Origin: Bdellovibrionales bacterium | GTDB lineage: Bacteria > Bdellovibrionota > Bdellovibrionia > Bdellovibrionales > UBA1609 | DNA: 64,000 nt | Assembly: GCA_023301025.1 (NCBI GenBank) | Contig: JALZUR010000005.1 | Span: 10,771 to 74,770 of the forward strand | Reading direction: 5' to 3' | Shown here: positions 23,258 through 25,459 of the stretch, piece after piece | Layout: the number at the start of each line of letters is the position of its first letter | Numbering within the stretch: the stretch's first letter is position 1 | Position numbers and translations under genes: made by a program | Notes under the pieces: generated by a model | What the model was told of the DNA's origin: nothing | The model's input: the letters and a program-made list of their open reading frames with translations, nothing else | Database searches by the model: none

Positions 23258-23629
23258 ATGCTTAGAGAAGTTTTAATTAAAGAGGGTTTGTCAAATCGTG
23301 AGGCTGAAGTTGCTGAGTTAGTAACTCAAGGTCTTTCTAATAAAGAAGTTGCATCAAGACTTTTTGTAACTGAAAAAACTGTAAAATTTCACCTTACTAA
23401 CATTTATAAAAAAATGAATGTAAAATCTAGAGCCCAGCTTATCGTATGGTGTCTGCCAAACATGACATTCATAGAAAGAGGCGGAGATAAAAGAAACACA
23501 GATAATACTAATGGTTTTTCTAATGGAATTCCTACAGGTCACTCTCCAGTTTCTTCACAGAACACAGAAGCAAACACTGCAGAGACTCAAACAATTCTTC
23601 CAGGTTCTTACAATAAAGTTAAGTTCTAG
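23258..23629 (+). CDS. Stand-alone LuxR-type HTH transcriptional regulator
   Basis: LSNREAEVAELVTQGLSNKEVASRLFVTEKTVKFHLTNIYKKM; SD AAGGAG. Confidence 0.9.
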   Translation: MLREVLIKEGLSNREAEVAELVTQGLSNKEVASRLFVTEKTVKFHLTNIYKKMNVKSRAQLIVWCLPNMTFIERGGDKRNTDNTNGFSNGIPTGHSPVSSQNTEANTAETQTILPGSYNKVKF

Positions 23630-24222: not shown

Positions 24223-24251
24223 TTTACATTACTGTCGGTATTTGCTACTCT
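24223..24251 (+). promoter_or_regulatory. Sigma70-like promoter with extended -10
   Basis: TTTACA (24223-24228), 17-nt spacer ending TGC, TACTCT (24246-24251). Confidence 0.55.
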
Positions 24252-24289
24252 GTATATGACATTCTTATGTCAAAAAGGAGGTGGTGCCC

Positions 24290-24343
24290 ATGAATCAATG
24301 TGAAATACCGGGCGCCCTATCCAGCGAGGTAGGGCGTTCATAG
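24290..24343 (+). CDS. Candidate 17-aa peptide MNQCEIPGALSSEVGRS
   Basis: ATG preceded by AAAAGGAGGTGGT, a near-perfect anti-SD complement; TAG stop; below the ORF-track size cutoff. Confidence 0.45.
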   Translation: MNQCEIPGALSSEVGRS

Positions 24344-24351
24344 AAACGTTG

Positions 24352-24378
24352 AGGCGGTCCAAATGGGCCGCCTTTTTT
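24352..24378 (+). terminator. Intrinsic terminator
   Basis: AGGCGGTCC-aaat-GGGCCGCC followed by T6. Confidence 0.85.
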
Positions 24379-25459
24379 ATATTTTGGGGGACTCTTTAGT
24401 GATATTAATACTTTGGGTAGGAAAGGCTAGCTCAAACCCTTTTTTGTTAAATTCCTCAAGTATTAATAAATTTGTTTGGTTCTGCGTTTTAAAGATGTCA
24501 GCTTCTTTTTTGATATAGTAAATAAAGGTGATATCCATTGAGTAACTGTTAAAGCCTGTAAATGCAGTAACACACTCTTTTTCATGGCCATAAACTTTAC
24601 TTGAGATGTCTTTTAAAGTGTCCATAGCTTCTTTTAATTCTTCAGGTTTTGTAGCGTAGGTAAGGCCTAGGATTAAAGTGATTTTTCTTGATTCTTCTGA
24701 CGAGACATTTTCTACCGAGTTTCCAATGAATTTAGAATTTGGAAGTGTTACAGTCCTGCCATCTAATTTTGTAACTTTAGTACTTCTAATTCCAATGCTT
24801 TTTACAACACCATCTGTGTTTTCAATTATTATTCTATCTTTAACACAAAAAGGTTTATCCATAAAAATTGTTAAGCCGCCAAAAATATTTGAAAGAGTGT
24901 CTTTTGCAGCAAGTGCAAAAGCTAACCCCCCTAAGCCTAAACCTGCTATGAGAGAAGCAATATTGTAGCCCGCATTGTCCAAAGCTAAAACCAAGGCCAC
25001 AAACCAAATGAAATAAGTTCCAAAATTTTCAATTAAAGGAAGAATTTGGTTGTCAAATTTCGACTCCGTTTCATTGACTCTAGGCCAGATAAAATAATCT
25101 ATAAATGTTTTTAAAATACGAACTAAAACCCAAGCAATAGACATGGTTAAAGCAAAAAAGAAAATTTTACTTTTAATTAAAGCTTGTGGTTCCGTAAAGT
25201 CTAAAAAATCTAAGCTTATATGAACACTAAAAATTAGAAGTATAGTTAAAAGTGGTTTCTCTAAAATCTTTAGAACTTTATCATCGTATTCTGTTTTAGT
25301 TTTTTTAGCACATTTTGATACAAGAGTGATCAAGATCCAGATAATAAGTTTTGCAATAAAATAAAGTGCTACTAAAGAGCCTGCAAAAAATATCCACTCC
25401 TTAAAATATGCTGGAAGGCTTGTTCTTTCATATAAGTTATTTAGGGTAGAAGTATACAT
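24377..25459 (-). CDS. MscS-family mechanosensitive channel
   Basis: SLIAGLGLGGLAFALAAKDTLSNIFGG, PFCVKD, IGIRST, LPNSKF, LAFPTQ. Confidence 0.92.
   Translation of the reverse strand: MYTSTLNNLYERTSLPAYFKEWIFFAGSLVALYFIAKLIIWILITLVSKCAKKTKTEYDDKVLKILEKPLLTILLIFSVHISLDFLDFTEPQALIKSKIFFFALTMSIAWVLVRILKTFIDYFIWPRVNETESKFDNQILPLIENFGTYFIWFVALVLALDNAGYNIASLIAGLGLGGLAFALAAKDTLSNIFGGLTIFMDKPFCVKDRIIIENTDGVVKSIGIRSTKVTKLDGRTVTLPNSKFIGNSVENVSSEESRKITLILGLTYATKPEELKEAMDTLKDISSKVYGHEKECVTAFTGFNSYSMDITFIYYIKKEADIFKTQNQTNLLILEEFNKKGFELAFPTQSINITKESPKI

What the first reader, a model, noticed from the sequence alone, without database searches (positions are those of the whole stretch)
24223..24378. Unannotated ~120-nt transcription unit with a very strong SD and a 17-codon ORF
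Seen: -35 and extended -10 elements, a 5' hairpin (24257-24272), AAAAGGAGGTGGT (the strongest anti-SD complement I saw in the window), ORF 24290-24343 (MNQCEIPGALSSEVGRS), an internal GC-rich hairpin and a terminator, all in a GC-rich island between convergent genes. Inference: a highly expressed micropeptide mRNA, a dual-function sRNA, or an RNA that binds or sequesters 30S subunits.
Basis: partly seen in the sequence, partly recalled or inferred. Interest (0 to 1): 0.7.

Follow-up and report, generated by a model that had tools for sequence, protein, structure and literature searches.

The report
Ribosome-gripping mini-ORF small RNA (APsRNA2 family)
This is a real, self-contained ~123-nt gene for a folded small RNA carrying the genome's best ribosome-docking site and a 17-codon reading frame; it is the counterpart of an uncharacterised attack-phase RNA of Bdellovibrio and occurs across the predatory phylum Bdellovibrionota, with signals for being translated conserved but the peptide not.

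Summary
The element is not a chance feature and not a 3' UTR.

- **Family:** a covariance model built from it finds one copy per genome in at least 156 of 384 genomes of the order, and in other classes of Bdellovibrionota. No Rfam family matches.
- **Expression:** the copy in a 3,782,950-bp genome lies at 535,188-535,324 (+). This coincides with APsRNA2 of B. bacteriovorus HD100 (mapped start site, 134 nt, 43-fold up in attack phase, function unknown).
- **Translation signals:** in 135 distinct members the conserved parts are a covarying 5' hairpin, a 10-12-nt complement of the 16S tail, and a start codon (AUG 121, GUG 13, UUG 1) 7-8 nt later. The frame stays open for 14-19 codons in 131 of them. 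A second GGAGG lies near the stop.
- **Peptide:** it is not conserved. Glu is GAG 71 times and GAA twice, and the frame of GGAGG differs between lineages.
- **Structure:** covarying helices occlude the start codon and pair the second SD with an anti-SD-like segment.

My best reading is a translated, structure-gated regulatory RNA whose function lies in engaging ribosomes. The mechanism is inferred.

The parts
24223..24251 (+). Promoter: -35 TTTACA (24223-24228), 17-nt spacer, extended -10 TGcTACTCT (24243-24251); predicted start about 24254-24257
   Evidence: Read from the sequence. The consensus scan did not call it. A -10-like hexamer lies at -13..-10 from the 5' hairpin in 67 of 96 family members. 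The HD100 homologue has a mapped TSS at the base of the hairpin (PMC3627812 Table 2).
24257..24272 (+). P1: 5'-terminal hairpin UGACA-UUCUUA-UGUCA
   Evidence: Folds. Covariation on 96 sequences: 91.3% of cells paired against 60% in shuffles, 149 cells changed on both sides, score 0.84 against 0.25, slid controls at most 0.075.
24274..24285 (+). SD1: AAAGGAGGUGGU, a 12-nt complement of the 16S rRNA 3' tail (GGAGG core 24277-24281)
   Evidence: 16S tail read from the genome. Duplex -19.0 kcal/mol, top ~5 of 14,003 sites. AGGAGGUG is invariant in the 25-sequence seed alignment, and the next position is A or G, both of which pair with U of the 16S tail.
24290..24343 (+). 17-codon ORF MNQCEIPGALSSEVGRS, start AUG 8 nt after GGAGG, stop UAG 24341-24343
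   Evidence: Family: start AUG 121, GUG 13, UUG 1; ORF of 14-19 codons in 131 of 135. Frame 0 is open for at least 12 codons in 100 of 100, against 10% and 4% for the other frames.
24283..24316 (+). P2 (alternative helix): GGUGCCC (24283-24289) with GGGCGCC (24310-24316); it closes the spacer next to the start codon and, when extended, the SD core
   Evidence: Predicted for nascent transcripts ending at 24317-24330; the forced structure is only 4.9 kcal/mol above the MFE. Family: cognate spacer/start to ORF-interior duplex -11.3 against non-cognate -8.7 kcal/mol, Wilcoxon 3e-16, better in 25 of 25 classes; the start codon lies inside the helix in 87 of 103.
24310..24339 (+). P3: 12-bp hairpin GGGCGCCCUAUC / GGUAGGGCGUUC. 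The 5' arm is CU-rich (anti-SD-like). The 3' arm and loop carry the degenerate second SD (GAGGU 24326-24330).
   Evidence: -18.8 kcal/mol. The arms covary in relatives: CACCCUUUC/GGAAGGGUG, CACUCUUCUG/CAGGAGAGUG, CACCCUUC/GAAGGGUG. In most of the family, GGAGG(U) pairs instead with a downstream anti-SD-like segment, with the stop codon inside the hairpin (88 of 93).
24351..24378 (+). Intrinsic terminator GAGGCGGUCC-AAAU-GGGCCGCCUU plus U-run; it overlaps the 3' end of the convergent MscS-like gene
   Evidence: (10 pairs, 7 G-C). 81 of 103 family members have a detectable terminator within 200 nt of the stop.

Best explanation
Window 24254-24378 (+) is an independent gene for a ~123-nt structured small RNA. 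It is the minimal-length member of a family found across the phylum Bdellovibrionota. The B. bacteriovorus HD100 member is the attack-phase-specific transcript APsRNA2.

Shown:
- The RNA begins with a protective 5' hairpin.
- It presents the longest complement of the 16S tail in the genome.
- It carries a 14-19-codon frame whose start codon, spacing and openness are under selection. Ribosomes therefore almost certainly load and translate it.
- The peptide itself is not conserved.

Inferred mechanism: the functional output is the ribosome-RNA encounter, gated by a three-part toggle.
- One CU-rich anti-SD-like segment (here the 5' arm of P3) can pair with the second SD-like element near the end of the frame (P3). 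This leaves SD1 free, the ON state.
- Alternatively it can pair with the SD1 flank and start region (P2), the OFF state.
- In this RNA the nascent transcript is predicted to fold OFF. It switches ON only when the 3' arm of P3 has been made.
- A translating ribosome must melt P3, which lets P2 re-form behind it. Loading would then be limited to one ribosome at a time. The anti-SD-like segment or the second SD would be exposed only while a ribosome is on the RNA.

I propose that the RNA acts as a translation-status-dependent regulatory RNA of the non-growing (attack) phase, not as a peptide gene. What it regulates is unknown.
For: Identity and reality
- BLAST found related sequences in same-genus, same-family and same-order genomes.
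- A strict pattern matched 30 of 384 genomes with 0 matches to the reversed control.
- Model R1 found exactly one hit in each of 156 of 384 genomes, in all 13 families of the order.
- Model R2 hit 116 of 401 genomes sampled across the phylum, including other classes.
- No Rfam family matches.
- The homologue in a 3,782,950-bp single-contig genome lies at 535,188-535,324 (+). This coincides with APsRNA2: 535,188-535,321, +, 134 nt, TSS-mapped, 8,869 RPKM in attack phase against 204 in growth phase (PMC3627812).
- Gene neighbours differ between lineages.

Translation
- Start codons are AUG 121, GUG 13 and UUG 1, at 7-8 nt from GGAGG in 131 of 135 members.
- Frame 0 is open for 12-22 codons in 100 of 100, against 10% and 4% for the other two frames.

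Peptide not selected
- Codons 3-5 vary freely.
- GAG outnumbers GAA 71 to 2, although GAG is only 34% of Glu codons genome-wide.
- GGAGG sits in two different frames in different lineages, and the stop codon position moves with it.

Structure
- P1 covaries.
- The start-occluding helix P2 covaries.
- The SD2 hairpin covaries and holds the stop codon in 88 of 93 members.
- The OFF-to-ON folding order in the G000 RNA is predicted.
Against: - No expression data exist for this genome.
- Translation is inferred from comparative signals only. There are no Ribo-seq or peptide data.
- The toggle rests on thermodynamic predictions. In G000, P3 is about 5 kcal/mol more stable than the P2 state. The G000 second SD is degenerate (GCGAGGU).
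- Across the family, SD1 is not more complementary to the rest of the RNA than to shuffled sequence (median z = -0.7).
- The arrangement differs between lineages: the anti-SD-like arm lies upstream of SD2 in G000's genus and in family f2, and downstream elsewhere.
- No trans target or output has been identified.
- The element is missing from two species of the same genus and from several reduced genomes, so it is dispensable.
Confidence: 0.5

Rival explanations
1. Micropeptide gene: the 14-19-residue peptide (here MNQCEIPGALSSEVGRS) is the functional product, and the RNA structure only tunes its synthesis.
For: The ORF is always open and has a valid start codon and optimal SD spacing. Recurrent residues exist (C-D/E near the middle; x-E-V-x-x-S at the end in most lineages).
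Against: The recurrent residues are explained by RNA motifs: UGUGA, CAUAAC (the strand that pairs with the start codon) and GGAGGU. The Glu codon is GAG 71 times against GAA 2. Family f2 reads the same GGAGG as Gly-Gly and ends with different residues. Codons 3-5 change non-synonymously even within one genus. One close relative truncates the frame to 12 codons. There is no signal peptide, no hydrophobic segment and no linked modifying or export genes.
Confidence: 0.15
2. CsrA-binding RNA: the two conserved GGA-containing elements, about 45-50 nt apart, bind one CsrA dimer. The RNA would then titrate, or be repressed by, the FliW-type CsrA of these flagellated predators in the motile attack phase.
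For: CsrA is encoded in G000 and in 39 of 41 relatives. B. bacteriovorus CsrA is a functional hag-type repressor, and its RNA partners are unknown (PMC13443453). There are two GGA motifs at a spacing that, from my own knowledge of CsrA, is compatible with dimer bridging. Expression is attack-phase specific.
Against: Conservation extends well beyond GGA, to the full 16S-tail complement GGAGGUGRU. The start codon, the spacing and the open frame are conserved, which a CsrA sponge does not need. There are only two GGA motifs, and in the predicted ensembles the second GGAGG is almost always paired (median P(unpaired) 0.01), whereas known sponges present many GGA motifs in loops (own knowledge). In G000 the second site has no GGA at all (GCGAGGU).
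Confidence: 0.12
3. 30S/70S decoy or parking RNA: the maximal SD, and the second SD placed 8 nt before the last sense codon, hold ribosomes non-productively during the non-growing phase.
For: There is a 12-nt 16S-tail complement, the best in the genome. A second GGAGG lies 7-11 nt before the stop in 95 of 97 members. The start codon is occluded. Expression is attack-phase specific.
Against: Abundance in HD100 is far too low to titrate ribosomes. It is 8,869 RPKM, whereas merRNA is 2,038,479 RPKM and is described as 2-fold above tmRNA and 6-fold above SRP RNA. In predicted ensembles, SD2 is almost always paired (median P(unpaired) 0.01).
Confidence: 0.1
4. Cis-acting leader-peptide attenuator, or merely the 3' UTR of the thioesterase gene.
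For: The element has a short ORF followed by a terminator 7 nt after the stop codon. In families f2 and f12 a co-oriented gene for a ~175-residue protein follows; I judge it YceD/DUF177-like from its N-terminal sequence only, without a family search.
Against: In G000 the downstream gene is convergent. Neighbours differ between lineages. In f2 a separate TTGACA-type promoter lies between the terminator and the downstream gene. The element has its own conserved -10 box and, in HD100, its own mapped TSS. There are no runs of a regulatory codon.
Confidence: 0.03

Closest known systems
APsRNA2 of Bdellovibrio bacteriovorus HD100 (Karunker et al. 2013, PLoS One, PMC3627812)
   Same: It is homologous. 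The covariance models built from the G000-type sequences hit the HD100 locus (E = 8.4e-13) at exactly the published coordinates. The anatomy is the same: 5' hairpin at the mapped TSS, GGAGGUGAUGCUUAUG, a 15-codon ORF (MVKNVDITKAEVTSS), a second GGAGGU and a terminator.
   Different: The paper lists it only as one of eight attack-phase sRNAs. It gives no function and no mention of an ORF, and it states that no homologues exist outside B. bacteriovorus. The G000 RNA is shorter (123 against 134 nt), has its anti-SD-like arm upstream of the second SD rather than downstream, and has a degenerate second SD.
Dual-function (ORF-bearing) sRNAs: SgrS/SgrT, RNAIII/delta-haemolysin, SR1/SR1P, Spot 42/SpfP (own knowledge)
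   Same: It is a small, independently transcribed, structured RNA that also carries a translated short ORF.
   Different: In those RNAs the peptide is conserved and functional, and a separate base-pairing seed has known targets. Here the peptide is not conserved, no seed or target is known, and the only universally conserved sequences are ribosome-binding signals.
Leader-peptide and ribosome-mediated attenuators (trp/his leaders; ermC, cat-86 and antibiotic-responsive leaders; own knowledge)
   Same: It has a short ORF whose translation, not its product, matters. It has alternative hairpins that depend on ribosome position, and a terminator close to the stop codon.
   Different: There is no regulated downstream gene (convergent gene in G000, variable neighbours elsewhere) and no regulatory codons. 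The RNA is a stand-alone gene kept in single copy across a phylum.
hok-type type I toxin mRNAs with metastable and fold-back structures (own knowledge; compare PMC6733600 for AapA1)
   Same: A metastable nascent fold is predicted to keep the SD closed during transcription. A rearrangement in the finished RNA would then control ribosome access to a very short ORF.
   Different: The peptide is short, hydrophilic and unconserved, so it is not a membrane toxin. No antisense RNA is known.
Mini-genes with a perfect 16S-tail complement noted earlier in this scan (Acidobacteria e1-3020696; Chloroflexota e1-3522361)
   Same: The theme is the same: own promoter, a 13-16-nt anti-SD complement, a ~13-codon ORF, a structured tail and a terminator, with function unknown.
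   Different: They are in different phyla and I found no sequence relationship (one search found no look-alikes). These are unchecked AI notes and I use them only as a lead.

Membership tests
APsRNA2 sRNA family (B. bacteriovorus HD100) | Sequence and structure homology to HD100 535,188-535,321 (+) | tested here: met
   R2, built from 96 family members, scores G000 at E = 9.3e-13 and the HD100-sized genome G050 at 535,185-535,270 with E = 8.4e-13. BLAST within the genus places the match at 535,188-535,324. The contig length is 3,782,950 bp.
APsRNA2 sRNA family (B. bacteriovorus HD100) | Independent transcript with its own TSS at the 5' hairpin | not testable with these tools
   The TSS is mapped only in HD100.
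APsRNA2 sRNA family (B. bacteriovorus HD100) | Attack-phase-specific expression | not testable with these tools
   Known for HD100 only: 8,869 against 204 RPKM.
Dual-function sRNAs | Translated small ORF | tested here: met
   The evidence is comparative only: start AUG/GUG/UUG, fixed SD spacing, and frame 0 uniquely open.
Dual-function sRNAs | Conserved functional peptide | tested here: not met
   The peptide varies. Conserved residues track RNA motifs, and GAG outnumbers GAA 71 to 2.
Dual-function sRNAs | Base-pairing seed with mRNA targets | not tested
   No target search was done. The only phylum-wide conserved sequences are SD-like.
Leader-peptide transcription attenuators | Co-oriented downstream gene under control of the terminator | tested here: not met
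   The downstream gene is convergent in G000 and neighbours vary.
CsrA/RsmA-sequestering sRNAs (CsrB, RsmY/Z) | Many GGA motifs presented in hairpin loops | tested here: not met
   There are two GGA-type motifs at most, and only one true GGA in G000. SD2 is predicted to be paired (P(unpaired) median 0.01).
CsrA/RsmA-sequestering sRNAs (CsrB, RsmY/Z) | CsrA encoded in the genome | tested here: met
   PF02599 is over its cut-off in G000 and in 39 of 41 relatives.
Any Rfam 15 family | Match at gathering score | tested here: not met
   There were 0 matches in the window and 0 in six homologous loci including HD100. Only weak, terminator-driven hits appear at E of 0.05 or worse.

The most novel reading that the evidence does not exclude
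Bdellovibrionota keep a single-copy 'ribosome-gated' RNA. It has one 16S-tail mimic and two Shine-Dalgarno elements arranged around a 15-codon frame. A ribosome that loads on the maximal SD and runs to the stop codon strips the mimic from the second SD by strand exchange with its own anti-SD. The RNA thereby reports active translation, admits one ribosome at a time, and exposes an anti-SD seed only while it is being translated. This would be a new class of translation-activated riboregulator, tied to the switch between the dormant attack phase and growth.
Probability: 0.2. Interest if true: 0.85.

Novelty: new variant of a known kind. Interest (0 to 1): 0.62.

Why it matters
The only prior record of this RNA is one line in a 2013 table of attack-phase sRNAs of B. 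bacteriovorus. That paper gave no function and stated that no homologues exist outside the species.

This analysis shows that it is a single-copy gene kept across the phylum. Its conserved features are ribosome-loading signals, a peptide-indifferent 15-codon frame, and covarying helices that gate the start codon and a second SD.

This turns an orphan transcript into a defined, testable RNA family. It suggests that predatory bacteria use an unusual translation-coupled RNA device in their non-growing phase. Together with similar mini-genes flagged in other phyla, it hints at a wider, undescribed class of 'maximal-SD mini-ORF' RNAs. It also supplies a covariance model that could be submitted to Rfam.

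Tried and rejected
- **Rfam:** gathering and E-value modes gave no family, only terminator-driven noise (suhB/mmgR at E = 0.054, MicX).
- **RNAalifold on the first six sequences** proposed SD1 pairing with the terminator 3' arm and U-tail. I do not adopt this as a general feature. It competes with the strong terminator hairpin. Across 81 full-length members, SD1 is not more complementary to the rest of the RNA than to shuffles (median z = -0.7).
- **Conserved synteny:** a ~175-residue protein that looks YceD/DUF177-like by eye follows the element in f2 and f12. It does not follow it in G000, G002, G003, G023 or HD100. I therefore reject a functional link with that operon.
- **Microcin-C-like heptapeptide or RiPP precursor** (C-terminal Asn in some f2 members): the C-terminus is variable and there are no linked enzymes.
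- **Double-glycine leader:** the 'GG' is simply GGAGG read in one frame.
- **Literature:** searches for a described function (APsRNA2; Bdellovibrio sRNA, Ribo-seq or small proteins; anti-SD sponge) found only the 2013 paper.
- **Earlier-scan look-up by sequence:** no look-alikes.

Full report
**Observation**

- A -35-like TTTACA (24223-24228) and an extended -10 TGcTACTCT (24243-24251) precede the hairpin UGACA-UUCUUA-UGUCA (24257-24272).
- Next come an A-run and AAAGGAGGUGGU (24274-24285).
- AUG at 24290 opens a 17-codon frame ending at UAG 24341-24343 (MNQCEIPGALSSEVGRS).
- A 12-bp G+C-rich hairpin lies inside the frame (24310-24321 with 24328-24339).
- An intrinsic terminator follows (stem 24351-24374 plus U-run).
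- The stretch is a G+C island of 47-52% in about 30% flanks. It lies between a thioesterase-like gene on the + strand and a convergent MscS-like gene.
- The + strand folds with z = -4.9 against dinucleotide shuffles.
- The genome's own 16S gene ends ...GGAUCACCUCCUUUCU. The SD therefore pairs over 12 contiguous positions with one G.U.
- Its duplex energy (-19.0 kcal/mol) is among the best five of 14,003 GGAG/GAGG-containing sites in the 2.03-Mb genome. The best of all is the antisense of the rRNA gene itself.
- The promoter is weak by consensus and the scan tool does not call it.

**It is a conserved gene, not chance and not a UTR**

- BLAST of 201 nt found related sequences in two species of the same genus, in another genus of the family and in two other families of the order. 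All show the same order of parts.
- A strict pattern (UUCU-N10-AGGAGGUGRUGCCMAUG, at most 1 mismatch) matched 30 of 384 genomes of the order. The reversed control pattern matched none.
- A covariance model from 25 sequences (R1) found one hit per genome in 155 of the 156 matching genomes (of 384; the fragmented assembly G248 has two). The hits fall in 66 of 121 genera and all 13 families, under the stricter filter setting, so this is a lower bound.
- I fetched 60 of the weaker hits and read them. All have the same anatomy.
- A second model from 96 members (R2) hit 116 of 401 genomes sampled evenly across the phylum. The hits include families in other classes. Of the 20 I fetched, 16 clearly showed the anatomy.
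- The element is absent (E > 0.05) from two species of G000's own genus and from several small genomes. It is therefore widespread but dispensable.
- Flanking genes differ between lineages, which excludes a 3' UTR or a leader of a particular gene.
- No Rfam 15 family matches the window or six homologous loci.

**Link to an experimentally detected RNA**

- Within one genus, 38 of 44 genomes carry the element by BLAST.
- One of these genomes is a single contig of 3,782,950 bp. From my own knowledge, that is the size of the B. bacteriovorus HD100 chromosome. Its match lies at 535,188-535,324 on the + strand.
- Table 2 of Karunker et al. 2013 lists APsRNA2 at 535,188-535,321, +, 134 nt. Its start site was mapped by TAP+/- sequencing. 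Its expression is 8,869 RPKM in attack phase against 204 in growth phase, a 43-fold difference. It has no FliA promoter and no assigned function.
- The paper states that these sRNAs have no significant homology outside B. bacteriovorus.
- No other paper in the library mentions APsRNA2.
- The mapped start is the first base of the 5' hairpin region.
- In the family, a -10-like hexamer lies at -13..-10 from the hairpin in 67 of 96 members. The G000 promoter call is therefore supported by position.

**The frame is kept for translation**

- Among 135 distinct members, the start codon is AUG in 121, GUG in 13 and UUG in 1. It always sits at the same place: 8 nt (94 members) or 7 nt (37 members) after GGAGG.
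- The frame runs 14-19 codons in 131 of them.
- In a set of 100 members, frame 0 is open for at least 12 codons in every one. The +1 and +2 frames reach 12 codons in only 10% and 4%, with median first stops at 0 and 3 codons.
- Exchange among the three bacterial start codons, together with a uniquely open frame across very diverged sequences, is what selection for translation predicts.

**The peptide is not what is conserved**

- Codons 3-5 change non-synonymously even within one genus.
- The residues that recur are encoded by RNA-level motifs:
  - Cys-Asp/Glu from UGUGA;
  - Asp-Ile-Thr from GACAUAAC, whose CAU pairs with the start codon;
  - x-Glu-Val from GGAGGU.
- At the Glu position the codon is GAG 71 times and GAA twice. 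GAG is only 34% of Glu codons in long ORFs of this genome.
- In family f2 and some other lineages the same GGAGG is read as Gly-Gly (21 of 97 members). The stop then follows after 7-10 nt instead of 11.
- One close relative has the frame cut to 12 codons by a stop in the hairpin loop.

**Conserved structure**

- P1, the 5' hairpin, covaries strongly. 91.3% of cells are paired against 60% in shuffles. 149 cells are changed on both sides. The score is 0.84 against 0.25, and slid controls reach at most 0.075.
- A helix forms between the SD-start spacer plus start codon and the interior of the frame. Its register shifts between lineages, but the partners covary:
  - GCUUAUG:CAUAAGC
  - GUUAUG:CAUAAC
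  - GCCCAUG:CAUGGGC
  - GCCAAUG:CAUUGGC
  - GGUGAUGC:GCAUCACC
  - here GGUGCCC:GGGCGCC
- Cognate duplexes average -11.3 kcal/mol against -8.7 for non-cognate pairings (Wilcoxon 3e-16). Cognate is better in 25 of 25 sequence classes. The start codon lies inside the helix in 87 of 103 members.
- The second SD-like element (GGAGG(U), 7-11 nt before the stop in 95 of 97 members) is paired with a CU-rich, 16S-tail-like segment.
  - In most lineages this segment lies after the stop codon, for example GGCGGAGGU with ACCUCCGCC or ACCUUCGCC. The stop codon then sits inside the hairpin in 88 of 93 members.
  - The flanks covary (GGCG/CGCC, GCCG/CGGC, CACGGU/ACCGUG). Cognate against non-cognate gives p = 2e-8, and p = 2e-4 with one sequence per class.
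  - In G000's genus and in family f2 the CU-rich arm instead lies upstream of the second SD (P3 here). That hairpin also covaries.
- In predicted ensembles of 81 full-length RNAs, the second SD is almost always paired (median P(unpaired) 0.01). The start codon is mostly paired (0.22).

**How it most likely works (inferred)**

- For the G000 RNA, prefix folding predicts that transcripts ending at 24317-24330 form P2. P2 extends into the SD core, so the ribosome site is closed.
- Once the 3' arm of P3 (24328-24339) is made, P3 (-18.8 kcal/mol) takes the shared strand GGGCGCC and the SD core becomes single-stranded.
- The P2-forced structure is only 4.9 kcal/mol above the optimum.
- A ribosome translating the frame must melt P3, which should let P2 re-form behind it.
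- At the stop codon, the second SD lies at initiation-like spacing from the last sense codon in most members (8 nt). It could therefore pair with the ribosome's own anti-SD instead of with the internal mimic.
- I therefore read the RNA as a translation-gated switch: one anti-SD-like strand with two alternative SD partners, one ribosome at a time, and a conformation that reports whether it is being translated.
- What the switch controls is unknown.
- The universal conservation of only ribosome-binding signals points to the ribosome encounter itself as the function. P1 loop sequences differ between classes.
- Attack-phase expression in HD100 suggests a role in the non-growing state.

**Rivals**

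- *Functional micropeptide:* disfavoured by the codon evidence above.
- *Bulk 30S sponge:* disfavoured by abundance. APsRNA2 is 8,869 RPKM. merRNA is 2,038,479 RPKM, which the paper describes as 2-fold above tmRNA and 6-fold above SRP RNA.
- *CsrA partner:* cannot be excluded.
  - In favour: CsrA is present in 39 of 41 relatives, and its RNA partners in Bdellovibrio are unknown.
  - Against: conservation of the full 16S complement, of the start codon and of the frame is not explained by CsrA binding, and G000's second site lacks GGA.
  - One reconciling possibility is a CsrA-repressed mini-ORF.
- *Attenuator or 3' UTR:* excluded here by the convergent downstream gene and by the variable context.

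**Novelty**

The transcript was seen once, in 2013, in one species, and was thought to be species-specific. The following are new as far as the held literature and Rfam show:
- the family itself;
- its phylum-wide distribution;
- its selected but peptide-indifferent mini-ORF;
- the maximal SD;
- the start-occluding helix;
- the SD2/anti-SD hairpin around the stop codon.

Earlier notes of this scan describe similar maximal-SD mini-genes in Acidobacteria and Chloroflexota. I found no sequence link to them and treat them only as a hint that the design may be more general.

Noticed in passing
L018-L022 (genus g96 of family f2), about 60-160 nt after the start codon: The ~31-nt hairpin module holding the second SD (AGGUUCCUCC-loop-GGAGGAAUCCUUUAAC) is repeated in tandem two to four times after the stop codon. 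This suggests that the SD2/anti-SD hairpin is a functional unit that can be multiplied.
   Followed up: partly
L005-L017 (family f2) and L023-L026 (family f12), downstream of the element: A co-oriented gene for a ~175-residue protein follows the element. I judge it YceD/DUF177-like by eye from its N-terminus (MLIDLKSIDE.../MRINLNEIP...); no family search was run. In f2 a conserved TTGACAC -35 box lies between the element's terminator and that gene. This synteny is absent in G000 and HD100.
   Followed up: partly
window 24351-24378 and 24377-25459 (-): The 3' end of the MscS-like gene overlaps the U-run of the sRNA terminator by 2 nt. The hairpin may therefore serve as a shared terminator for both convergent units, although the minus-strand side has only a weak T-run.
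   Followed up: no
L161, L167, L174-L177 (family f16, another class of the phylum): These members use GUG (one uses UUG) as the start codon. They carry an extra G+C-rich hairpin between a conserved TAGACGCTATAC promoter-like block and P1.
   Followed up: no
L002 (G002, same genus), ORF interior: The anti-SD-like arm reads GCAUCACCCUUUCUU, nearly a copy of the 16S tail GGAUCACCUCCUUUCU. It can pair either with SD1 plus its flank (GGAGGUGAUGC) or with the degenerate second SD (GGAAGGGUGAU). Its frame is cut to 12 codons by UAA-UAG in the hairpin loop.
   Followed up: partly
window 23258-23629 (+): A 123-residue ORF has what looks by eye like a LuxR/FixJ-type HTH at its N-terminus and a low-complexity Asn/Thr/Ser/Gln-rich tail. 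It lies between a GlnD-like 685-residue gene and the thioesterase. The domain order is unusual for this family. I did not analyse it, and no family search was run.
   Followed up: no
HD100-like loci L065, L084, L103, upstream of the element (-55 to -25): A conserved CTGGACC-N10-TGGCRAA block lies upstream of the -10 box in the Bdellovibrio genus. It may be the site that confers attack-phase expression, since the paper found no FliA motif for APsRNA2.
   Followed up: no
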